Source: Shigella phage ESh25. Taken from it: a DNA stretch of 64,000 bases. Positions 3,440 to 64,000 of this stretch are shown in pieces (position 1 is the first letter of the stretch; each line of letters begins with the position of its first letter). A program made the translations under genes and the position numbers. Below the pieces are notes generated by a model, which did no database searches, had not been told where the DNA came from, and was given only the letters and a program-made list of their open reading frames with translations. The stretch lies in the sequence record ON528735; one strand, given 5' to 3'.

Positions 3440-4186
3440 TTATCCTCGGATAAGTTTAAAAATTGAACAATTTAGCGGGTATCCTCTTTTCAGTTTAAGT
3501 TTATCAATAAAAGACAAGTTTTGATACCGCTCTACACCTTGAATAATTTTATCACACATGTCATATTGCATTTCTGCTTCTGACAACTTTTTCACAGTTT
3601 TCCAATCCGAGCCTTTAAGAAGAACGTTCAATTTAACAACTTCAGCGCCTTCTGCTATGCGAGAACCATCAATACGAGCTTTAAGTGCTATAATCGTTAG
3701 CTTAACGTCAGAAGTTTGTTTTGATTTAGAAAGCTGAGAAATGTGTTCAATTCGATTTTCACGTTTTTTCTGTATAGCTTTAATTTGATTATAAGTCTTT
3801 TTGATTTTAGCCCATTTCTTTTCATCTAAATTTAGTTTATGAACTTTTTTCGCAGATGAACGACCAATTCGCAAAGCAAATAAATCACGCTTTTCAATCA
3901 ACTCTTCTAAAGTATAATCAGAACGAAATGTATTATACTTTTTCTTTACTGCAATAACATTCCCTTTAATGTATCCAACGTTATTATCAAAACGTTCTAA
4001 TGATAATTTCTCTCCTTCAATACGATTATCAAAAGGTTCTCCCGAGTAAGCGCAAACTTTCTGATCTAAAATGTTCTTAATGTAATTGAAGTCTAAGTTA
4101 AAATCTTTAGAACGTCTTTTAGCAGATGCCTGAGTGTGCTCTAAACGACGTTTAATTTTACGAATTTGATTATTAGACAGTTTCAT
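3440..4186 (-). CDS. basic, Lys/Arg-rich protein; possibly Srd-like
   Basis: 248 aa; position between modA and dda where T4 has srd; assignment by synteny only. Confidence 0.45.
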   Translation of the reverse strand: MKLSNNQIRKIKRRLEHTQASAKRRSKDFNLDFNYIKNILDQKVCAYSGEPFDNRIEGEKLSLERFDNNVGYIKGNVIAVKKKYNTFRSDYTLEELIEKRDLFALRIGRSSAKKVHKLNLDEKKWAKIKKTYNQIKAIQKKRENRIEHISQLSKSKQTSDVKLTIIALKARIDGSRIAEGAEVVKLNVLLKGSDWKTVKKLSEAEMQYDMCDKIIQGVERYQNLSFIDKLKLKRGYPLNCSIFKLIRG

Positions 4187-4306
4187 ATTTTTCTCACATC
4201 TTACGGACGATTTAATACTTACTATAACATTTTTACCTTAACTTGTAAACAACTTTATGTAAAATGCTTTAAAAATTTCATGGTATAATGAATCTAAGTC
4301 CTTCCA

Positions 4307-4909
4307 TTATAGATTAAATCCTTCAAAATCAAGAGTATAGATAGTGTATGTTGAATACTTTTTATACTCATATCTATCTGCAATTCTAAATACACTTCCA
4401 GCTGGTATCATTACTTCTTGTTCATCTGAAACTAATTCCATATTACGATAACGATGGCTATCCGGAAACTTAAAGTTTGGATTGTATTCTTTACAGCGTA
4501 GAGCTTTTATAGCATACTCCTGGAAATTGAATACCATAGGAGCTTTGAATTCAAAAATAACTTGTGTGTTATACTCTAAACCGGAAGCAAAATGTAGAGC
4601 TATATTTTTATCATATGAAGCTGATACGACTTTATCAAATGTAATAATATCAATTCCTTGATTTAATACTTGCTTAGTCTCAGCTGGAACACCTCTCCAA
4701 AGAGGTTTATCGTTTGGAACCAAACGAGATTTGATTATTTCATTTAACCAAGTATGGTCATCTGGCTTATTAGTAATACAATGAATTAAAAGTTCAATTT
4801 CAGATAAATTAAACCCTTCAGAAAGCAATTCTTCACGAATAGAAGCACGCACCGATGCATCCATTGATTTTATTTTAAAATCTTTTAGTTGCATTACTGA
4901 GTATTTCAT
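4307..4909 (-). CDS. modA: ADP-ribosyltransferase ModA
   Basis: 200 aa; R...S...E(xE) ART-like motifs (LWRG, SASYD, EQEVMIP); paralog of adjacent ORF; T4 synteny. Confidence 0.75.
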   Translation of the reverse strand: MKYSVMQLKDFKIKSMDASVRASIREELLSEGFNLSEIELLIHCITNKPDDHTWLNEIIKSRLVPNDKPLWRGVPAETKQVLNQGIDIITFDKVVSASYDKNIALHFASGLEYNTQVIFEFKAPMVFNFQEYAIKALRCKEYNPNFKFPDSHRYRNMELVSDEQEVMIPAGSVFRIADRYEYKKYSTYTIYTLDFEGFNL

Positions 4910-5529
4910 TCAACTACCTCAATATCATAAACTTTAAATGTTCCAAATGAATCGTGTAATTTTTCTTTTGAAATAGAAGTTATTCTATACTTTCCAATTG
5001 GAATCATCCATTCTTGTTCATGTACAATCATCATTAAGTTATCAGTTCTTTCTGAATCTAACCCATCAGTATCTTCATACGTGTACTTAAACTCAGTATT
5101 AGGAGAAGAAAGTATAATATCGCTGATATGGTCAGAATAATTAAAAGCTTTATCAGTTTTTAAGCGAAGTACTATTTCAGTGAAATATTCAGCATAAGAA
5201 AAAGAACACGCTGTATGCAAACTAGTAGTAAATGAATCTACCCTGTTCGTTGAAAACACTTCTCCAACTTGCAAATCTTTAATAAGTTCTTTTGTCGATT
5301 TTGATATACCACGATATAATTGATAAGGCGATTTAGTTAAATGCTTTTTAATGATTTTATTCAACTGTCTGTGAAGAGCTTCATTCTTTTTTGCTTCCAT
5401 ACATTGCCAAAGAACAGACTGCTCAAAATCAGTAAATTTTTCACAGACCTTTTTATACATATCATATTGAAAATCAACGCTTTCAGCTTTTATAGATAAC
5501 TGTTCAACATCTGCAGGATTAATAATCAT
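4906..5529 (-). CDS. modB: ADP-ribosyltransferase ModB
   Basis: 207 aa; LYRG, FSTNR, EQEWMIP motifs; ATGA overlap with modA. Confidence 0.75.
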   Translation of the reverse strand: MIINPADVEQLSIKAESVDFQYDMYKKVCEKFTDFEQSVLWQCMEAKKNEALHRQLNKIIKKHLTKSPYQLYRGISKSTKELIKDLQVGEVFSTNRVDSFTTSLHTACSFSYAEYFTEIVLRLKTDKAFNYSDHISDIILSSPNTEFKYTYEDTDGLDSERTDNLMMIVHEQEWMIPIGKYRITSISKEKLHDSFGTFKVYDIEVVE

Positions 5530-5596
5530 GATAGCCTCCGTATACTTCAGAAGCTATCATATCATCGTTAGAAAGGAAAGTAAACAACTTTTTGAA

Positions 5597-5779
5597 TTAT
5601 TTTGCCCAGGGAGCCCAAGGCGGAGGGTCAAGATGGTATGAAGCTAGTTCTTCTAGAAGAGCATCTGGGGCTTCAATTCCATAATTCTGTAATACTATAC
5701 GGTACTCTTTCTTATAATCACTAGAATCATTCTGGATATTCGTAGAATGATTATCTTCTAACATCTCAAATAAATCCAT
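5597..5779 (-). CDS. hypothetical acidic protein
   Basis: 60 aa ORF. Confidence 0.4.
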   Translation of the reverse strand: MDLFEMLEDNHSTNIQNDSSDYKKEYRIVLQNYGIEAPDALLEELASYHLDPPPWAPWAK

Positions 5780-10226: not shown

Positions 10227-10391
10227 TTACTCTTCTTTTTCTTTAGATTCCTCTTTTTTCTTTTTAGGAATCTGTTCAGGACCTTTATTTACTACAGCGC
10301 CTGACGTTGTTCCAGTAGAGATATTTTCAGGATTACCACCTGAATCTCCAGCGACCATATCTTCTTTGATAAATTCTTTAAACGTTTTCAT
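10227..10391 (-). CDS. hypothetical small Gly/Lys-rich protein (61.1 position)
   Basis: 54 aa ORF below track threshold, found by manual translation; ATG one nt after upstream stop. Confidence 0.4.
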   Translation of the reverse strand: MKTFKEFIKEDMVAGDSGGNPENISTGTTSGAVVNKGPEQIPKKKKEESKEKEE

Positions 10392-11616: not shown

Positions 11617-13043
11617 TAAAATTTTAATTCATTTGCCAAAGCATCTAACTGAGCTCGAGCGGATTCGTTTCTTTGATAGCGATTCTGTTCAGCCTGAATC
11701 TGCTGTGAACCTGCTACTTCGTTCACTTCAGTTGGAGTAGAATCTTGTTCAATTTCTACCCATTTCTGATTTCCTTTTTGAACACCCATCAAAAACTTAT
11801 TCCATTTATTCTTATCACCGTATCGTGATTTGATTTGCTTAATGAGTTGTTGTTCAGCAGCTGCTAGCTCCTCGGTTTCAATGACCGCAAGCATAAAATC
11901 GGCTGTTGCTGGAAGGCCGGCAGATTCTGCAATATCGCTCATGTTAACATCAGAAGAATCCCAAGCTTGTTTACCAACCTGTGCTGCGGTCCAAAGAACA
12001 GTTTCGGTTTCAACAGCCAGAGCACGCAATTCCTCTGCGATAGCTTTAACAGTTGTGTAACTATTTTCTGAATAAACTCTAATGCGGCAAGATTTACAAA
12101 TACCCAGATAGTCAACAATAATGATTGTTGGAACAAAATTCTTCTTGAGCTTCAATTCATTCAAAAGAGAACGAAATGTATTAGCGTCTGCTCCACCGGT
12201 AGGATATTGTTTAACGATTAAACGGCCGAGAGTAGATTTCTCGCGCCATTTTTCCATTTTTCCTTTATACTCAGCGTAAGAAATATGCCCATCATCAATG
12301 TCATCAAGAGAAACATCAAGCATATTAGCGTCAATACGCTTAGCACAGACTTCTTCTGCCATTTCCATGGAAATGTAAAGAACATTATGTCCGAGCTGCA
12401 AATAATCTGCTGCCAATGAACACAGACCTAATGACTTACCGACGTTAACACCAGCCATTAAAACGTTCAGTGTTCCAGTTTCAGCTCCGCCTTTAGTAAT
12501 TTTATTTAGAATTTTGAGTTTAAATGGAACCTTACGAGCTTTATTCATATAAGATAGCCAACGTGCTTCGTAGTCATCCATCCAATCATGACCAACGTAA
12601 CTATCAAATGAAATTGATAATGCCTGACGCATGATGTCAGGAATAGCACCAACATCCGGCATTTTCTTATTTCGTTTTTCCAGAGGAAGCTCAGCATTAG
12701 TTTGAATTTCGATTATTTTAGACGTAGCATTAAACATCGCCCTTTGCTGAACATATTTTTCTGTTTCTTTTACTAACCAGCTGTGGTCTTCCGGAGAATC
12801 AGCCAGTTTTGAAATAAGTGTTTTTACACCAGAATATTCTGTTTCAGTAAATGAACTATTTTCTAATGCAACATTTAACGCATTAATAGATGGAACGCTA
12901 TGATACTCATTGACATGAGATTTAATTAATTTGAATGTATTTTTAGCTGGACCACTTTCAAAATATTCTGAATCCATATATGGCCAAACTTTTGAAAAAT
13001 AAGCTTGATCAAATATGAGATGAGAAAGAATAATTTCTACCAC
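11616..13043 (-). CDS. 41: replicative DNA helicase (gp41, DnaB-like)
   Basis: 475 aa; Walker A GVNVGKS; T4 synteny. Confidence 0.95.
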   Translation of the reverse strand: MVEIILSHLIFDQAYFSKVWPYMDSEYFESGPAKNTFKLIKSHVNEYHSVPSINALNVALENSSFTETEYSGVKTLISKLADSPEDHSWLVKETEKYVQQRAMFNATSKIIEIQTNAELPLEKRNKKMPDVGAIPDIMRQALSISFDSYVGHDWMDDYEARWLSYMNKARKVPFKLKILNKITKGGAETGTLNVLMAGVNVGKSLGLCSLAADYLQLGHNVLYISMEMAEEVCAKRIDANMLDVSLDDIDDGHISYAEYKGKMEKWREKSTLGRLIVKQYPTGGADANTFRSLLNELKLKKNFVPTIIIVDYLGICKSCRIRVYSENSYTTVKAIAEELRALAVETETVLWTAAQVGKQAWDSSDVNMSDIAESAGLPATADFMLAVIETEELAAAEQQLIKQIKSRYGDKNKWNKFLMGVQKGNQKWVEIEQDSTPTEVNEVAGSQQIQAEQNRYQRNESARAQLDALANELKF

Positions 13044-13052
13044 ACTTACTCC

Positions 13053-13397
13053 TTAAAAGAATTTAAATTTTTTCTTTGACCTTTTATTAAATGCATCTTG
13101 TAGTTGCATTGTAATACATTTTTCTACATGAGGAGCTAACTCAGCTTTTCTTTCTTGGTCAAGAACAGCAAAGTCCATTACAACCTTTCCATCAACCCAA
13201 TCCAGTTTAGTTACATACACTATATGTGTAGAACCATCTTCTAGTTTAATGACAATCTCCTGGATAACATTTTCCATGGCAGATTTAATTATCTTAAGAG
13301 ACTCGTTAAAAAGACGTTCTTTTCTTTCTTCTTCCCCCTCTTCGGAGGGGGATTCGTCGATAATTTCTAGATCTAAATCTAAATCATCTTTATTCAT
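13053..13397 (-). CDS. 40: gp40 head vertex assembly chaperone (probable)
   Basis: Position between uvsX and 41; track start is GTG, trimmed to ATG that overlaps uvsX stop; start uncertain. Confidence 0.6.
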   Translation of the reverse strand: MNKDDLDLDLEIIDESPSEEGEEERKERLFNESLKIIKSAMENVIQEIVIKLEDGSTHIVYVTKLDWVDGKVVMDFAVLDQERKAELAPHVEKCITMQLQDAFNKRSKKKFKFF

Positions 13398-14571
13398 TAA
13401 ATTCTTCCATATCACTTAACTGCTCGAGGTCAGTTTCTAAATCAGCAGCTGATTTACTTTTACTTTCTGGAGATTTAAATTTTTCAACCTTTGAGTTAAT
13501 CAATTCATCAACTTCAGCTTCAACAATTTCATTACTATCAATAGCACCTAATTGATAAGCACGTTTAATAGCATCTCGGAATGGTTGATGCTTAAATAAA
13601 GGACCCCAGAATGTAGTGCAGTTGGTATCTTTTGCACGCCAAGATTTTTCTTCGCGAATCATCTCACCGGTTTCTTCGTCAAGAAATTCACGAGCATACC
13701 AGCCATTTTTAGGTTTTACTACAAATCCTAATTCTAGAGCCATATCTAACAATCCAGAATAAGGATCGATACCACCGTCAAATTTAACATCAATAAAGAA
13801 TTTACTTTTTTCTTTAACGGTACGAGATTTTTCTACATTTAGAACAAATTGATATCCCTGAAGATCAGAACCATCTTTAATCTGACGTTTACCGATAATG
13901 AATACAGTATCAGCCGAATACATTACGCCTGTACCGCCTGTCATCACGGTTTTACTAAACATTTCAATTGTTTCAATTGTATGGTTAACCGCAACACATG
14001 GAATATTTTTAATGCTAAAGTAAGGAGTAACAATACGGAATAATGACTTCAGTGATTTAGCACGAGTCATATCTGCCACAGATTTTTCATTCAAGGCATC
14101 TTCCGTTTCTTTCTTAGAAGCCATATTACCGATTGAGTCGATGAATACAATAACCTTTTCACCACGCTCAATAGCTTCAAGCTGGTTCACCATATCAATT
14201 TTCAGCTGTTCAACTGACTGGATTGGTGTATGAATTACTCGTTCCGGGTCAACTCCCATAGATCGCAAATAAGCTGGAGTGATACCAAATTCGCTATCAT
14301 AGAATAGACAAACCGCGTCAGGATATTTGTTCAAATATGCCGCAACCATAGTCAAAGACATATTTGATTTAAAGTGTTTAGAAGGCCCTGCGAAAATAGT
14401 TAAACCAGACTGCATGCCGCCATCAATCGCACCAGAAATAGCAATATTAAGCATTGGGATTTTTGTACGGATTACATCCTTTTCATTAAAGAATTTAGAT
14501 GTAGTCAGTTCAGCAGTCATTTTAGAAGTTGAAGCTTTAATCAAACGGGATTTTAAATCTGCAATAGACAT
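13390..14571 (-). CDS. uvsX: UvsX recombinase (RecA-like)
   Basis: 393 aa; sequence recognised as T4 UvsX. Confidence 0.95.
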   Translation of the reverse strand: MSIADLKSRLIKASTSKMTAELTTSKFFNEKDVIRTKIPMLNIAISGAIDGGMQSGLTIFAGPSKHFKSNMSLTMVAAYLNKYPDAVCLFYDSEFGITPAYLRSMGVDPERVIHTPIQSVEQLKIDMVNQLEAIERGEKVIVFIDSIGNMASKKETEDALNEKSVADMTRAKSLKSLFRIVTPYFSIKNIPCVAVNHTIETIEMFSKTVMTGGTGVMYSADTVFIIGKRQIKDGSDLQGYQFVLNVEKSRTVKEKSKFFIDVKFDGGIDPYSGLLDMALELGFVVKPKNGWYAREFLDEETGEMIREEKSWRAKDTNCTTFWGPLFKHQPFRDAIKRAYQLGAIDSNEIVEAEVDELINSKVEKFKSPESKSKSAADLETDLEQLSDMEEFNE

Positions 14572-54522: not shown

Positions 54523-54903
54523 TCAATTAGAAAATAAATTTATCCAAGATTGTTCTTTAATTAAAAATGGCTCAGAATCATATGCCATTAAACTTTGGGT
54601 GATTAGTCCTTTAAAAGGCCCATCAATAAATTCCATGGTAAAATATGGAATTTTATTCATTAGCCGTGCATTAGGAGCAGTACACAAAACTCTGCATCCT
54701 TTGAATACGCCTTTTTGTAATTTGTATTGCTTGGGATAAAATTCGCTCAAAATGTTATTATTTGCTAAAATTTCAAAATGATTCACCAATTTATTTTTAA
54801 TAGTTTTTGGCGAAAAATAAAGATATTCGAAAAGCTGAGTGTCTGTCATCATTGCATTCCGATTACGAAAAACTGTGGACGAGTAATACCACCAATGCAA
54901 CAT
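54523..54903 (-). CDS. hypothetical protein
   Basis: 126 aa track ORF; start probably internal. Confidence 0.45.
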
Positions 54904-55436
54904 TTAATATTACAGCAGCAGTGTACAGTGTCAATATGGACACTATAAATCTTATCCATATCAGGAGATTTGACAGGCTCATCAATTATATACAAAATTC
55001 GCGAAAGCGATAAACCTCTGAACTTGCTTCCTTTATTACCAATAAAACTGCGCACAGAATCAGTAAATAAACGAAAACGTATATCATCATTAGAATAACG
55101 CGAAAATTCCTTTTTAATATTATCTGCGGAAATTTTAGCGTAAGCTGAAGTATTAGAAAGAACAATAACTGTTCCACCGTCATACAACCAATTAGCGGCA
55201 AAATTAGTTACTGCAGTTGATTTACCAGATTGGCGTCCACCATCTAGTCGAAGTGTACAATATTGTTTAAGCAAGTCTTCAAATGGTGGGATATAATCGT
55301 TTTTACAAATTTCTTCTACTCTAGCATCAGAATGGTGTGTAAAAGCATTCATCAGGGATAGATAAGGACCAGTTAAAAATGTTCTCATTTTATTCTCTCT
55401 AAATTTGGGCCATTCCATGGCGCATGAATTGTCCAT
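54849..55436 (-). CDS. P-loop protein
   Basis: GGRQSGKST Walker A; start probably internal (MRTFLTG...). Confidence 0.45.
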   Translation of the reverse strand: MDNSCAMEWPKFRENKMRTFLTGPYLSLMNAFTHHSDARVEEICKNDYIPPFEDLLKQYCTLRLDGGRQSGKSTAVTNFAANWLYDGGTVIVLSNTSAYAKISADNIKKEFSRYSNDDIRFRLFTDSVRSFIGNKGSKFRGLSLSRILYIIDEPVKSPDMDKIYSVHIDTVHCCCNIKCCIGGITRPQFFVIGMQ

Positions 55437-55533
55437 TTCTGTATTTACCCATTACCGCACTTGGGCTCGACCTTATTACAGGTTGGCGGGAATCCCTCAC
55501 AGAATCATGAGGTCCAGGTTATTCCCATGTTAT

Positions 55534-55950
55534 TTAAATGTAAATATTTTTGCCGTAATACTTATACCAGTGTGGCTTCATTAAAATTTTTTCATCGAGT
55601 CGTTGTTGACTCAACTTAATAGCTGATTTGCATGGATTATAATCATTTTTCCATTCTACTGGAATATCGCTGATGTCAGGAACTTCAGTATCTTTTATAC
55701 TGAACCCGCGTTTTAAGCATTCCGTTATAATGTCCGATTGACGCTTTCGCAAAAATTCTAACTTATCGTAAAAGAAAGTAACATGACCAGAACCTAAAAT
55801 AAATTTAGAAGATATTTTAAAATCTTTAACGCGCTTACCGTTTGCCACATGCTTACGAACTATACCAAAAACACGCGGCAATTCACGGTATTCTGCGATT
55901 AAATGTTGATCAGCAAGTTCAGATACTAAAGTCAAATTAATACGAGTCAT
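55534..55950 (-). CDS. denV: endonuclease V (pyrimidine dimer glycosylase)
   Basis: 138 aa; recognised as T4 DenV. Confidence 0.9.
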
Positions 55951-55975
55951 TTTATCCCTCCAAGTAACTGTGAAT

Positions 55976-56005
55976 ATACTATCACAATTCTAGGAGAAAG
56001 TAAAC
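55976..56005 (-). promoter_or_regulatory. early promoter for denV
   Basis: GTTTAC -35 and TAGTAT -10, then SD GGAGGG. Confidence 0.5.
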
Positions 56006-56009
56006 AACT

Positions 56010-56540
<531 letters not shown>

Positions 56541-59869: not shown

Positions 59870-60133
59870 TTATTTCATATTATTGAAATATTCTTCTGCG
59901 ATTTCGTCGTTATCATGGTAAACTTTAGAAGACAGTTTAACATAACTTTCAGCAGTGAACATGTTAATCACAACCTTTACAGTATACCACTGACCGTCTT
60001 CATTGCCCATTACCGCATAAGTTTCAAACATCGGATGATCAGGACCGATAACTTTAATATCATTCACTGTACGACCGAAATCTTCTGAAACACATTTCAT
60101 AAAGAAGTTGAACAGTTCGCCGTAATTATCCAT
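59870..60133 (-). CDS. hypothetical protein
   Basis: Track TTG start trimmed to ATG (MDNYGELF...). Confidence 0.45.
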   Translation of the reverse strand: MDNYGELFNFFMKCVSEDFGRTVNDIKVIGPDHPMFETYAVMGNEDGQWYTVKVVINMFTAESYVKLSSKVYHDNDEIAEEYFNNMK

Positions 60134-60145
60134 TTCGTTCTCCAA

Positions 60146-60230
60146 GTTGTTTTCTGTATCAGTAGTTGATAGTTGTATAGTACCATGGAAGAACAGGGAT
60201 GTAAACAGTTTTGTGAAAAAATTTTTAAAA
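60146..60230 (-). repeat. promoter-leader cassette copy C
   Basis: See 17034..17110. Confidence 0.6.
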
Positions 60231-60343
60231 AGTTTTAGGGAATTCTAGGGTCAGGAGGGGCAATTAAAAGATAGGATAATATATTATAAAGGGTAGAAAC
60301 TAAATGATGCCTAGAGAGGCCCGGAAAGGCCTAGATACCAAAA

Positions 60344-60367
60344 AGCCCCAACCTTTTGGTCGGGGCT
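60344..60367 (-). terminator. intrinsic terminator hairpin (8 bp stem)
   Basis: agccccaaccttttggtcggggct. Confidence 0.55.
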
Positions 60368-60374
60368 AAGAATG

Positions 60375-60848
60375 TTATTTGATTTGTTTAGCAGACCAAA
60401 TGTGGTCTTTAATAATTTTTTGGATGTCTTCAACATACTCTAGGTCATGAGCATGTGGGTTATCTTTGAAACTATAAGCACGAGCTAGCTTTTGGCCTTC
60501 AGTTTTGATTACTAAAAGCTCTTTAAGGATAGCTTCATATTTAGAGATAATTCCTTTAACAATATTTTTTTCTTGTGTAGTTTTAGGGTCTGCTTTAGGA
60601 GCAGGTTTACCCGAAGCCTTTGCAAAAGCAGCGCCAGTAGCAACCAAACTTTTCCAGGCCATACTAACTGCATTCCCTGTAAATCCTTCGGCTTTCATAT
60701 CACGAGCAAATTGGAATCGTGATTCATCGGAAGCATCTTTATAGGAATATTTACCCGCGGCAATGGCTGCTTTTGCGACAGCTTGAATTTCGGTGCTAGA
60801 TGCTTCATTTAACACCGCTTCATTTAAAAATTGAGCATATGATTTCAT
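60375..60848 (-). CDS. protein with capsid-targeting-like N-terminus (candidate internal protein)
   Basis: 157 aa; N-terminus MKSYAQFLNE resembles the T4 internal-protein targeting sequence MKTYQEFIAE; Ala/Lys-rich. Confidence 0.5.
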   Translation of the reverse strand: MKSYAQFLNEAVLNEASSTEIQAVAKAAIAAGKYSYKDASDESRFQFARDMKAEGFTGNAVSMAWKSLVATGAAFAKASGKPAPKADPKTTQEKNIVKGIISKYEAILKELLVIKTEGQKLARAYSFKDNPHAHDLEYVEDIQKIIKDHIWSAKQIK

Positions 60849-60898
60849 CTTATTTCCTGTTTTAATTCGTGGTTTTAATATACTTATTTATACCAAAA

Positions 60899-60922
60899 AG
60901 CCCCAACCTTTCGGTCGGGGCT
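60899..60922 (-). terminator. intrinsic terminator hairpin at end of tRNA operon
   Basis: agccccaacctttcggtcggggct, near-duplicate of hairpin at 60344. Confidence 0.55.
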
Positions 60923-60969
60923 AAGCCTTGCGGCAACCTTGTCGGGGTTCCACCTGCTAAGGCAAGTGT

Positions 60970-61238: not shown

Positions 61239-61314
61239 TGGTCGAGGCAGTAGGAATCGAACCTACGACCTAGGACTTAGAAGGTCCTTGCTCTTCCTTC
61301 TGAGCTATGCCTCG
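61239..61314 (-). tRNA. tRNA-Arg (anticodon UCU)
   Basis: Manual fold: 7 bp acceptor, D and T arms, loop CTTCTAA, encoded CCA. Confidence 0.75.
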
Positions 61315-61318
61315 GATT

Positions 61319-61393
61319 TGGCGGACGTGATAGGATTCGAACCTATAACCAATCGCTTAACAGGCGATCGCTCTGCCATTGAGCTACACATCC
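61319..61393 (-). tRNA. tRNA-Asn (anticodon GUU)
   Basis: Manual fold: loop CTGTTAA, GGTTCGAAT T-loop, encoded CCA. Confidence 0.7.
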
Positions 61394-61397
61394 AAAT

Positions 61398-61484
61398 TGG
61401 TGGGGAGTGGTGGAGTCGAACCACCCGAGTCGCAATGACAATGGATTTACAGTCCACACCGCTACCTCTACGGGATAACTCCCC
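61398..61484 (-). tRNA. type II tRNA-like, possibly tRNA-Tyr (GUA)
   Basis: 87 nt; acceptor GGGGAGT/ACTCCCC, T-arm GGTGG-TTCGACT-CCACC, long variable arm, candidate loop CTGTAAA; D-arm irregular. Confidence 0.45.
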
Positions 61485-61493
61485 AAATTAATT

Positions 61494-61568
61494 TGGTGGC
61501 CCTGGGTGGAATTGAACCACCATCTGGCGATTATGAGTCGCTTGCTTGAACCTTCCAGCTACAGGGCC
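61494..61568 (-). tRNA. tRNA-Ile/Met type (anticodon CAU)
   Basis: Manual fold: loop CTCATAA, encoded CCA. Confidence 0.75.
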
Positions 61569-61569
61569 T

Positions 61570-61645
61570 TGGTGCTGATTGACGGAATCGAACCGCCGAC
61601 CTTCTCATTACAAGTGAGTTGCTCTACCTACTGAGCTAAATCAGC
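61570..61645 (-). tRNA. tRNA-Thr (anticodon UGU)
   Basis: Manual fold: loop CTTGTAA, encoded CCA. Confidence 0.75.
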
Positions 61646-61650
61646 AAAAC

Positions 61651-61740
61651 TGGCGGAGGCGATAGGATTTGAACCTATGAGTCGCCGGAGCGACTGCCGG
61701 TTTTCAAGACCGGTGCATTAAACCACTCTGCCACGCCTCC
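61651..61740 (-). tRNA. tRNA-Ser (anticodon UGA), type II
   Basis: Manual fold: long variable arm, loop CTTGAAA, encoded CCA. Confidence 0.75.
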
Positions 61741-61743
61741 AAA

Positions 61744-61751
61744 TATTTATA
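61744..61751 (-). promoter_or_regulatory. possible late promoter TATAAATA at segB 3' end
   Basis: Exact 8-mer on minus strand overlapping last segB codons, a few nt 5' of tRNA-Ser; could be chance in AT-rich DNA. Confidence 0.3.
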
Positions 61752-62355
61752 TATTGTTAATTTGATTTAGAATTCTTTTTGCTTGAGTATGACTTACGCC
61801 AATATGCTTAGCATATTTAGATAATTCACCCCGCTTAGAAAAATCATATAATTTAGAAATTTCTATTCTTCTTTTTCTTTCATCCGCAGAAACTTTTGCT
61901 TCGTTTGCTTTTGCTATTTTACGTTTAGCTTCTTGAGAATGAGTTTTACCAGCAAAGCCATTTTTCATTAATCCATTTGAAGACCATCCTTTTAATTTTC
62001 CGTTAGAATGTGCCTTTTTAACACCCAATGAAATTAATTCGCGTTGCTGATCTGTCATAGGATAATTATTTATATGATCCCATCCACCTTCACCTCCAAG
62101 TTTTAAATTATACACATCTGGTCTATTTAAAAACTCTTCTGTGACAATATTTTTCTCGGCTTCAAGCATAGATTCTTTATCATCAAAATACTCTAATATT
62201 TCTTTAGAAAAATTTTCTATGCCATATTTATCTTGGGCTCTTTTTAATAATTTACCAGAACCCATATATCCATCATCTAAATTTTCGGTAGAATGCACAC
62301 CAATATAAATTTTATTATTAATTTTATTTGTTATTTTATAAAGATAAAAATGCAT
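61747..62355 (-). CDS. segB: GIY-YIG homing endonuclease SegB
   Basis: FYLYKITNK...IYIGV motif; embedded in the tRNA cluster as in T4; track ORF starts at ATG 62397 (216 aa), I prefer ATG 62355 next to the motif. Confidence 0.8.
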   Translation of the reverse strand: MHFYLYKITNKINNKIYIGVHSTENLDDGYMGSGKLLKRAQDKYGIENFSKEILEYFDDKESMLEAEKNIVTEEFLNRPDVYNLKLGGEGGWDHINNYPMTDQQRELISLGVKKAHSNGKLKGWSSNGLMKNGFAGKTHSQEAKRKIAKANEAKVSADERKRRIEISKLYDFSKRGELSKYAKHIGVSHTQAKRILNQINNI

Positions 62356-62401
62356 ATCAGTCCCTAATAAAGAACTGAGCGTCTCACGACGAGTCATAAA
62401 T

Positions 62402-62475
<74 letters not shown>

Positions 62476-62480
62476 AAATT

Positions 62481-62567
62481 TGGTGCGAGAAGTGGGACTC
62501 GAACCCACAAGGAAATCATTCCGCAGCATTTTAAGTGCTGTGCCTTTACCAATTTGACCATTCTCGC
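62481..62567 (-). tRNA. tRNA-Leu (anticodon UAA), type II
   Basis: Manual fold: long variable arm, loop CTTAAAA, encoded CCA. Confidence 0.75.
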
Positions 62568-62568
62568 G

Positions 62569-62641
62569 CTGGGAATAAAGGACTCGAACCTTTGCATCTA
62601 GCAGTCAAAGTGCTATGCCTTACCAACTTGGCTAATTCCCA
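62569..62641 (-). tRNA. tRNA-Gln (anticodon UUG), no encoded CCA
   Basis: Manual fold: loop CTTTGAC; abuts tRNA-Leu (dimeric precursor arrangement). Confidence 0.7.
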
Positions 62642-63596: not shown

Positions 63597-63660
63597 TTTA
63601 TTCTCCTCAGTAGTTGATAGGGTAATAGTATCACTACTAAAACCCCGTGTAAACAACTTT
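63597..63660 (-). repeat. promoter-leader cassette (second type)
   Basis: GTTTACA-17nt-TACTAT...tatcaactactGAGGAGAAtaaaATG; partner of the cassette in 63925..64000 and related to 43940..44010. Confidence 0.5.
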
Positions 63661-63666
63661 GTGAAA

Positions 63667-63924
63667 TTATTTTAAATCTTCTAATCGTTTCTTCATCTTA
63701 GAACCATTTTTAGCGATTTCTCCTGCGTCAGAGCATAATGCTAAAAGTGCTTTAACTTTAGTTTGGTCTCCTTTAAAAGACGAAGGATCGACTGCAGCAG
63801 CAAGTTCTTTAATACGAGAGAAAAGACGCTCAGCTTCAGCTAAAGCCATTCCAAGCTTTACTTCCATACCATGAGAAGATTCAGTGATAATAGTTTCTGT
63901 AGCAAACTCTTTATAAGTTTTCAT
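63667..63924 (-). CDS. candidate internal protein with capsid-targeting-like N-terminus (IPI-locus position)
   Basis: 85 aa; N-terminus MKTYKEFATE resembles MKTYQEFIAE; sits just past the tRNA cluster where T4 has ipI. Confidence 0.5.
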   Translation of the reverse strand: MKTYKEFATETIITESSHGMEVKLGMALAEAERLFSRIKELAAAVDPSSFKGDQTKVKALLALCSDAGEIAKNGSKMKKRLEDLK

Positions 63925-64000
63925 TTTTATTTTCCTAATTAATTTTGATGAGGTAATAGTATCACTACCTCATCAGTGTGTAAACAACTTTGTGAAATTA
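63925..64000 (-). promoter_or_regulatory. early promoter plus leader for the IP-like gene
   Basis: GTTTACA...TACTAT hexamers and SD before ATG 63924. Confidence 0.5.

What the first reader, a model, noticed from the sequence alone, without database searches (positions are those of the whole stretch)
63667..63924. Divergent internal-protein gene at the IPI locus
The 85 aa protein begins MKTYKEFATETIITE, an even closer match to the capsid-targeting consensus, and sits just beyond the tRNA cluster where T4 carries ipI. The rest of the sequence does not look like T4 IPI as I remember it. The locus is known to be hypervariable among T-even phages, so this may be an IP with a different restriction target.
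Basis: partly seen in the sequence, partly recalled or inferred. Interest (0 to 1): 0.55.

Follow-up and report, generated by a model that had tools for sequence, protein, structure and literature searches.

The report
Known T-even internal protein gene Ip5
This 85-codon gene is Ip5, an already named but functionally unsolved "internal protein" that T4-like phages probably pack into the head and inject with their DNA; published transposon data I found suggest it helps the phage on one uropathogenic E. coli strain.

Summary
The ORF is real (63667..63924, minus strand, 85 aa) and sits in the slot where T4 carries ipI, between tRNA.4 and 57B. It is not new. It is nucleotide-identical to the annotated gene Ip5 of phage RB51, is a full-length member of PHROG 3499 "internal head protein", and occurs in about 270 sequenced T-even phages including T2.

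Only the leader resembles T4 IPI, IPII and IPIII. It has the capsid-targeting residues Y4 and F7 and an I-T-E prohead-protease motif at residues 13-15, as in IPI. The predicted 70-aa mature part (pI 9.2) is a confident three-helix bundle. It has no detectable sequence similarity to IPI*, and the predicted fold differs.

The gene is a cassette bracketed by two 56-nt early-promoter/hairpin repeats that also flank ipI in T4.

Function is unproven. Silas et al. 2025 tested ip4-10 against a GmrSD panel and found no target. In the HIDEN-SEQ preprint's supplementary tables, insertions in Bas37 gene bas37_0261 (mature part identical to this protein) are about 4-fold depleted on E. coli CFT073 and unchanged on three other clinical strains. 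CFT073 carries two intact GmrSD-family genes.

Verdict: already known gene, with a testable target hypothesis.

The parts
63667..63924 (-). ip5 coding sequence (85 codons plus stop)
   Evidence: ORF list. 100% nucleotide identity to RB51 Ip5. PHROG 3499 'internal head protein', residues 1-85 of 85, E=3.7e-50. 100% amino-acid identity to ip5 of PP01 and teqskov.
63880..63924 (-). Leader (capsid targeting sequence), codons 1-15: MKTYKEFATETIITE. Predicted prohead-protease (gp21) cleavage after E15.
   Evidence: Y4 and F7 match the targeting-critical residues of the IPIII leader (PMC9026906). I13-T14-E15 matches the I-T-E19 at which T4 IPI is cut to the 76-residue IPI* (PMC3012670). An (I/L)-x-E motif ends the leader, at position 10, 11 or 15, in every family member where one is recognisable, despite indels. 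AF2 confidence is low for residues 1-18. All three amino-acid differences from Bas37 fall in the leader.
63670..63879 (-). Predicted mature Ip5* (70 aa, 7.5 kDa, pI 9.2), a three-helix bundle
   Evidence: AF2 pLDDT above 90 for residues about 19-85, helices 4-44, 54-63 and 67-84. pI and mass. No informative PDB or BFVD fold match. Purifying selection.
63933..63936 (-). Shine-Dalgarno AGGA, 8 nt before the ATG
   Evidence: Read directly from the sequence.
63945..64000 (-). Upstream 56-nt repeat. T4-type early promoter (-35 TTTACA at 63984-63979, TG-extended -10 TACTAT at 63961-63956) overlapping a 13-bp hairpin (63946-63975).
   Evidence: Repeat family D2. Promoter scan. Hairpin -17.4 kcal/mol, z=-4.2. 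Almost identical to the sequence upstream of T4 ipI.
63614..63669 (-). Downstream 56-nt repeat, 84% identical to the upstream copy. It is the early promoter of tRNA.4 (63653-63625) with a weaker hairpin, and forms the right border of the ip5 cassette.
   Evidence: The same element lies between ipI and trna.4 in T4.

Best explanation
The gene is Ip5, one of the interchangeable internal-protein cassettes of T-even phages.

Proposed mechanism. The precursor's N-terminal leader (MKTYKEF...) carries it into the scaffolding core of the prohead. The prohead protease gp21 removes the leader after I-T-E15. About 70 residues of a small, basic, all-helical protein remain with the packaged DNA and are injected with it. 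In the new host the protein neutralises a strain-specific defence before any phage gene is expressed. The most likely target is a type IV (GmrSD-family) restriction enzyme that cuts glucosyl-hmC DNA, and the type found in E. coli CFT073 is the leading candidate. The cassette is exchanged between phages by recombination in the two near-identical early-promoter/hairpin repeats that flank it.

Shown here: the gene's identity, the leader and cleavage motifs, locus equivalence with ipI, the flanking repeats, purifying selection, the predicted fold, and lack of homology to IPI, IPII, IPIII and Bas37_0260.

Taken from published data: the conditional fitness defect on CFT073.

Inferred: packaging, cleavage site, injection, and the nature of the target.
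For: Identity.

Leader and cleavage logic: with CTS genetics summarised in PMC9026906.

Same slot and same regulatory flanks as T4 ipI, whose product is known to be packaged and injected; PMC3012670.

A TATAAATA late-promoter motif lies on the coding strand inside gene 1, upstream of 57A-57B-Ip5, in RB51.

All four internal proteins with a known target inhibit type IV restriction. Ip1, Ip2 and Ip3 each block one GmrSD variant (PMC12373910). Bas37_0260 blocks McrBC (10.1101/2025.11.20.689424).

bas37_0261 is Ip5 with an identical mature part. In Extended Data Table 7 it is non-essential on K-12 (18 of 18 TA sites hit). It is depleted on CFT073 (log2FC -2.09, adjusted p printed as 0.00000) and unchanged on CFE299 (-0.01), CFE303 (-0.01) and CFE336 (+0.26).

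The upstream gene 57B is also depleted on CFT073 (-1.56), as expected if insertions there are polar on ip5. An insertion in ip5 cannot be polar on 57B.

CFT073 has two intact GmrSD-family ORFs in its immigration control region (c5421 is listed in PMC4437046).
Against: No virion proteomics or N-terminal sequencing of Ip5 was found.

Silas et al. expressed ip4-10 against a panel of GmrSD variants and found no reproducible inhibition. I could not confirm that their 'ip5' is this sequence, or whether the CLS_001 enzyme was active in their assay.

The CFT073 effect is about 4-fold in one pooled competition. The authors did not comment on it or validate it with a clean deletion.

The CLS_001 GmrSD gene is in about a quarter of complete E. 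coli genomes. It may also be present in the clinical strains where Ip5 was dispensable.

The only promoter seen directly upstream is of the early type.
Confidence: 0.62

Rival explanations
1. Ip5 is packaged and injected as above, but its target on CFT073 is not a type IV or GmrSD enzyme. It could be another defence or host factor.
For: ip4-10 gave no reproducible inhibition of the GmrSD panel. CFT073 carries other systems, for example SanaTA and a type I R-M next to the GmrSD genes. The helical-bundle fold gives no clue.
Against: All four internal proteins with known targets hit type IV restriction. T-even DNA is already resistant to most type I-III enzymes. The authors of PMC12373910 propose that both Ip loci target GmrSD variants.
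Confidence: 0.2
2. Ip5 is a generic basic head-filling or DNA-associated protein with no specific host target. It would simply replace IPI-III in charge balance or DNA packing.
For: Mature pI is 9.2, similar to IPI* (9.0) and IPII* (9.6). In this window no Ip gene lies at the second Ip locus between e, denV and vs.8, so Ip5 may be a main internal protein here.
Against: It is fully dispensable on K-12 but specifically needed on one clinical strain. Strong purifying selection acts on a defined fold. The T4 IPs once thought generic each turned out to have a specific target.
Confidence: 0.1
3. Ip5 is not packaged. It would be an early cytoplasmic protein whose leader is a relic.
For: A T4 early promoter lies directly upstream, and there is no TATAAATA in the 76 nt available upstream in the window.
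Against: T4 ipI has an almost identical upstream region, and IPI is packaged. Leader residues Y/F4 and F7 and a terminal (I/L)-x-E are kept in paralogues only 39-51% identical. A late-promoter motif exists further upstream in the operon.
Confidence: 0.06

Closest known systems
Ip5 of phages RB51, T2, T6, RB15, RB70 and PP01 (PHROG 3499; UniRef 'Ip5 internal head protein'). The family of extra Ips is credited to Repoila et al. 1994, which I could not read.
   Same: The same gene. It is 100% nucleotide-identical to RB51 Ip5 and 95-100% amino-acid identical to the others, in the same position between 57B and tRNA.4.
   Different: Nothing of substance. The Bas37 and T2 alleles differ at three leader residues (Y4F, E10K, I12T).
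T4 IPI / IPI* (inhibitor of GmrSD of E. coli CT596)
   Same: Same genomic slot and almost identical flanking promoter/hairpin repeats. Similar leader (MKTFKEF...ITE|A versus MKTYKEF...ITE|S). Similar size and basic pI.
   Different: No detectable similarity beyond the leader. Ip5 is predicted all-helical, whereas IPI* has two beta-sheets flanked by helices (PMC3012670). The target is not known to be shared.
Bas37_0260 (McrBC inhibitor at the ipI locus, HIDEN-SEQ preprint)
   Same: CTS-bearing small protein in the same hypervariable locus. In Bas37 it lies directly downstream of Ip5.
   Different: It is a different protein: 77 aa, mature pI 6.5, similar only over the first 11 residues. It is absent from this window, where ip5 abuts the tRNA.4 promoter.
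Ip5 paralogues at the second Ip locus (for example UFV13 gp128 next to lysozyme e; RB69ORF127c per the RB51 annotation)
   Same: 39-51% identical over the full length, with the same helix pattern and leader logic.
   Different: They sit at the e/denV locus, are 93-94 aa long with a C-terminal extension, and presumably have a diverged specificity.
PeSL mobile regulatory cassettes of T4-type phages (Arbiol 2010; Comeau 2014)
   Same: The ORF is bracketed by direct repeats, each combining an early promoter with a stem-loop, which allows cassette swapping.
   Different: According to Arbiol et al. the IP-locus elements are analogues, not homologues, of PeSLs. They are based on T4 early promoters and have weaker, AT-rich stems.

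Membership tests
T-even internal proteins (CTS-bearing, gp21-processed, injected) | N-terminal capsid targeting sequence with the targeting-critical positions 4 (aromatic) and 7 (Phe) | tested here: met
   MKTYKEF has Y4 and F7, the same as IPII/IPIII MKTYQEF. The criteria come from PMC9026906.
T-even internal proteins (CTS-bearing, gp21-processed, injected) | Prohead-protease motif (L/I)-x-E at the end of the leader | tested here: met
   I13-T14-E15|S, the same tripeptide as the IPI site ITE19|A. An (I/L)-x-E motif ends the leader in homologues. Actual cleavage was not observed.
T-even internal proteins (CTS-bearing, gp21-processed, injected) | Encoded in one of the two variable Ip loci, flanked by early-promoter/hairpin repeats | tested here: met
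   Located between 57B and tRNA.4, as ipI is in T4. Flanked by 56-nt repeats shared with T4.
T-even internal proteins (CTS-bearing, gp21-processed, injected) | Physically present in the virion in processed form and ejected into the host | not testable with these tools
   No proteomic report was found.
Ip5 family (PHROG 3499) | Full-length sequence match to the family profile and its named members | tested here: met
   E=3.7e-50 over residues 1-85 of 85. Identical to RB51 Ip5. P0002 and P0003 are named Ip5 for T2 and RB70.
IPI (T4 ipI product, IPI* fold) | Homology of the mature region, and the IPI* fold (two beta-sheets flanked by helices) | tested here: not met
   BLASTP aligns only 25 leader residues. 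The AF2 model is all-helical. No PDB hit to IPI*.
Inhibitors of GmrSD-family type IV restriction enzymes | Relieves restriction of glucosyl-hmC phage by a specific GmrSD enzyme | not testable with these tools
   A published panel test of ip4-10 was negative. Indirect support comes from the CFT073-specific Tn-seq depletion and from the GmrSD genes in CFT073.

The most novel reading that the evidence does not exclude
Ip5* is the cognate injected inhibitor of a GmrSD-family type IV restriction enzyme of E. coli CFT073. The candidates are the CLS_001 enzyme c5421/C_RS25605 (WP_000648234), whose gene is found in about 25% of complete E. coli genomes including O157:H7, and its neighbour C_RS25630. 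If so, this would explain why Ip5 is the commonest occupant of the ipI slot. It would give a fifth Ip-target pair, with an all-helical inhibitor fold.
Probability: 0.28. Interest if true: 0.5.

Novelty: already known. Interest (0 to 1): 0.3.

Why it matters
As a sequence feature it is ordinary: a named, widely annotated accessory gene of T-even phages. Its value is as an orphan member of a system now known to decide host range. Each characterised internal protein disarms one type IV restriction enzyme. Ip5 is among the most widespread Ips and still has no target. The unremarked CFT073-specific depletion of Ip5 insertion mutants, together with the GmrSD-family genes in that strain, turns "function unknown" into an experiment with a few strains. 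This is relevant to choosing or engineering T4-like therapeutic phages for uropathogenic and O157 E. coli.

Tried and rejected
Pfam gave only sub-threshold noise.

A PDB sequence search found nothing meaningful.

The word-indexed protein search found only 5 close clusters. The exhaustive search of 1.84 billion representatives added only two 41-42% relatives. No distant family exists to exploit.

The key primary papers are not in the library: Repoila 1994, Rifat 2008 and Bair 2007. Statements about them come second-hand from papers that cite them.

Literature searches for 'Ip5' plus phage terms found nothing.

The idea that this gene is the newly reported McrBC inhibitor of Bas37 was tested and rejected. 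That protein is bas37_0260, a different one, and it is absent here.

I missed the CFE331 row of the Tn-seq table and did not spend further look-ups on it.

T4 locus L002 was not available to scripts, so the translate tool was used instead.

Full report
**Observation**

Nine tRNA genes lie at 61239-62641. Between them and the ORF are homologues of T4 tRNA.2, tRNA.3 and tRNA.4. The window ends 76 nt upstream of the start codon.

In T4 the order is tRNAs, trna.2, trna.3, trna.4, ipI, 57B. In RB51 the order is the same with Ip5 in place of ipI. So the gene does occupy the ipI slot.

**Identity**

The region is 98% identical to RB51 and RB68, and is shared by about 700 phage records. The ORF itself is nucleotide-for-nucleotide identical to RB51 gene Ip5. 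That gene is annotated [quoted passage not shown].

- The protein is 100% identical to ip5 of PP01 and teqskov.
- It is at least 80% identical in about 270 phage records.
- It matches PHROG 3499 "internal head protein" end to end, E=3.7e-50.
- Database clusters carry the names "Ip5 internal head protein" for T2 and "Ip5" for RB70.

The gene is therefore already known and named. Reviews credit the additional Ips to Repoila et al. 1994, a paper I could not read.

The family is very narrow. There are only three clusters at 50% identity among 1.84 billion representatives. The others are 39-51% paralogues, some of which sit at the second Ip locus next to lysozyme e.

**Anatomy of the protein**

Similarity to T4 IPI, IPII, IPIII and to Bas37_0260 is confined to the first 11-25 residues.

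According to the genetics summarised in PMC9026906, residues 4 and 7 of the leader direct capsid targeting, and residues 8 and 10 direct processing.

- Ip5 has Y4 and F7, as IPII and IPIII do.
- At 8-10 it has A-T-E, which lacks the I/L of the protease motif.
- At 13-15 it has I-T-E followed by S. T4 IPI is cut after the same tripeptide...STITE|A, to give the 76-residue IPI*.
- An (I/L)-x-E motif ends the leader, at position 10, 11 or 15, in every family member where one is recognisable (five close relatives and three distant ones). This holds despite indels, including an allele with a 10-residue leader, MQTYQTFITE|S.
- In the Bas37 and T2 alleles E10 is K, which leaves only the E15 site.

I therefore predict cleavage after E15, giving a 70-residue, 7.5-kDa protein of pI 9.2. 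That is close to IPI* (9.0) and IPII* (9.6).

AlphaFold2 on a 7-sequence alignment gave mean pLDDT 85. Residues 1-18 have low confidence and residues about 19-85 form a three-helix bundle with pLDDT above 90. This is unlike IPI*, which has two beta-sheets flanked by helices. Fold searches returned only an Ip5 homologue or generic helical hits.

The mature part is under purifying selection. Synonymous versus non-synonymous codon differences are 7:0 against Bas37 and 32:7 against ECML-359. All three differences from Bas37 in the leader are non-synonymous.

**Anatomy of the locus**

The ORF is bracketed by 56-nt direct repeats, 63614-63669 and 63945-64000, which are 84% identical and 331 nt apart.

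- Each contains a T4-type early promoter, TTTACA-17-TACTAT with an upstream TG.
- In the upstream copy the -10 element sits in the loop of a 13-bp hairpin, -17.4 kcal/mol, z=-4.2.
- The same two elements flank ipI in T4 and are nearly identical there.

So ipI and ip5 are alternative cassettes between conserved recombination and regulatory borders. This is the known picture. Arbiol et al. state that Repoila et al. saw PeSL-like, early-promoter-based elements at both IP loci, and that these may confine IP shuffling to those loci.

No late-promoter motif lies in the 76 nt available upstream in the window. In RB51 a TATAAATA lies on the coding strand inside gene 1, upstream of 57A-57B-Ip5.

**What it does: evidence from the literature**

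Silas et al. 2025 (PMC12373910) showed that T4 Ip1, Ip2 and Ip3 each inhibit one distinct GmrSD type IV restriction enzyme. They propose that both Ip loci encode such inhibitors. They also expressed ip4-10 against a panel of GmrSD variants and found no reproducible inhibition.

The HIDEN-SEQ preprint (10.1101/2025.11.20.689424) reports that Bas37 gene bas37_0260, at the ipI locus, is a CTS-bearing inhibitor of McrBC. I fetched Bas37 (MZ501089) and found two things.

- bas37_0260 is a different 77-aa protein that this window lacks.
- The neighbouring bas37_0261, labelled "ipI" there, is Ip5. Its mature part is 100% identical to the window protein.

The preprint's Extended Data Table 7 therefore contains fitness data for this very protein, and the authors do not discuss them.

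| Comparison (against K-12 BW25113) | bas37_0261 (Ip5) log2FC | 57B (bas37_0262) log2FC |
|---|---|---|
| K-12 reference library | non-essential, 18/18 TA sites hit | non-essential, 33/34 TA sites hit |
| CFT073 | -2.09 (mean 263 to 61; adjusted p printed as 0.00000) | -1.56 (adjusted p 0.003) |
| CFE299 | -0.01 | +0.13 |
| CFE303 | -0.01 | -0.86 (not significant) |
| CFE336 | +0.26 | +0.48 |

The 57B result on CFT073 is what polarity on ip5 would give. The reverse polarity is impossible, because ip5 is downstream of 57B. Polarity of ip5 insertions on bas37_0260 would push the value the other way. So Ip5 appears to be specifically useful on CFT073.

**A candidate target**

CFT073 carries a GmrSD homologue, c5421, in its immigration control region (PMC4437046). 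Silas et al. place it (C_RS25605, WP_000648234) in their largest cluster, CLS_001.

- In the genome the ORF is intact, although RefSeq now splits it into two features.
- A second GmrSD-family gene, C_RS25630 (550 aa), lies on the other side of a type I R-M system.
- Both match GmrSD-like defence profiles strongly.
- The CLS_001 gene is present in about 1,290-1,400 of 5,426 complete E. coli genomes, including O157:H7 strains. Several Ip5 phages were isolated on O157:H7.

This makes Ip5 against a CFT073 GmrSD enzyme a reasonable and directly testable hypothesis. It remains an inference for three reasons. The enzyme is common and may also be in the strains where Ip5 was dispensable. The published panel test was negative. 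And the Tn-seq effect is modest and unvalidated.

**Verdict**

The object, however, is the long-known Ip5 gene and not a new divergent IP. Packaging, processing and injection are inferred from strong sequence and locus logic, not demonstrated.

The most likely function is a strain-specific injected anti-defence protein, probably aimed at a type IV restriction enzyme. The alternatives are less well supported: a non-type-IV target, a generic DNA-associated filler, or a protein that is not packaged.

Novelty: already known. Interest is low to moderate, raised slightly by the testable CFT073 lead.

Noticed in passing
window 10227..10391 (-): A 54-aa ORF directly upstream of the primase gene 61, in the position of T4 gene 61.1 (name from memory; PHROG 1823, unknown function). 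It begins MKTFKEFIKE|D, a textbook capsid-targeting leader with an I-K-E protease motif. It lies far from the two Ip loci, which are said to hold all IP genes. The rest is Gly/Ser/Lys/Glu-rich and low in complexity.
   Followed up: partly
window 60375..60848 (-), repeats 60335-60370 and 60890-60925: A 157-aa ORF (RB32ORF132c homologue; PHROG 2280, unknown function) begins MKSYAQFLNE|AVLNE|A, a CTS-like leader. It is bracketed by 36-nt direct repeats, 97% identical, that form GC-rich terminator-like hairpins. This is a second cassette of a different border type, possibly another internal protein.
   Followed up: partly
window 54849..56504: No Ip gene lies at the second Ip locus. Lysozyme e (56010..56504), denV (55534..55950) and the vs.8-like ORF (54849..55436) are almost contiguous. 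RB51 has Ip4 there and T4 has ipII and ipIII. Within this window Ip5 is the only annotated internal protein.
   Followed up: partly
window 61747..62397 (-): A GIY-YIG homing-endonuclease ORF (216 aa) splits the tRNA cluster between tRNA-Ser and tRNA-Gly. This is a different position from segB in T4 (between tRNA-Arg and tRNA-Ile). The tRNA set also differs from T4: tRNA-Tyr and tRNA-Asn are present and tRNA-Pro is absent.
   Followed up: no
L008 (Bas37, MZ501089) 1364-1621 and HIDEN-SEQ Extended Data Table 7: The gene labelled 'internal head protein ipI' in Bas37 (bas37_0261) is Ip5, not IPI. Its insertion mutants, and those of the upstream 57B, are significantly depleted on E. coli CFT073 only. 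The preprint does not mention this.
   Followed up: yes
L009 (E. coli CFT073 NC_004431.1) 3554-5773 and 12397-14049: The CLS_001 GmrSD gene of CFT073 is one uninterrupted ORF. Current RefSeq annotates it as a truncated DUF262 pseudogene plus a separate 'GmrSD restriction endonuclease domain' protein, and the same split appears in other E. coli genomes. A second GmrSD-family gene sits beyond the adjacent type I R-M system.
   Followed up: partly
window 60166-60221: A third, weaker copy (63% identity) of the ip5-flanking promoter repeat lies upstream of the 91-aa ORF at 59870..60145. This suggests the same early-promoter module is reused across this hyperplastic region.
   Followed up: no
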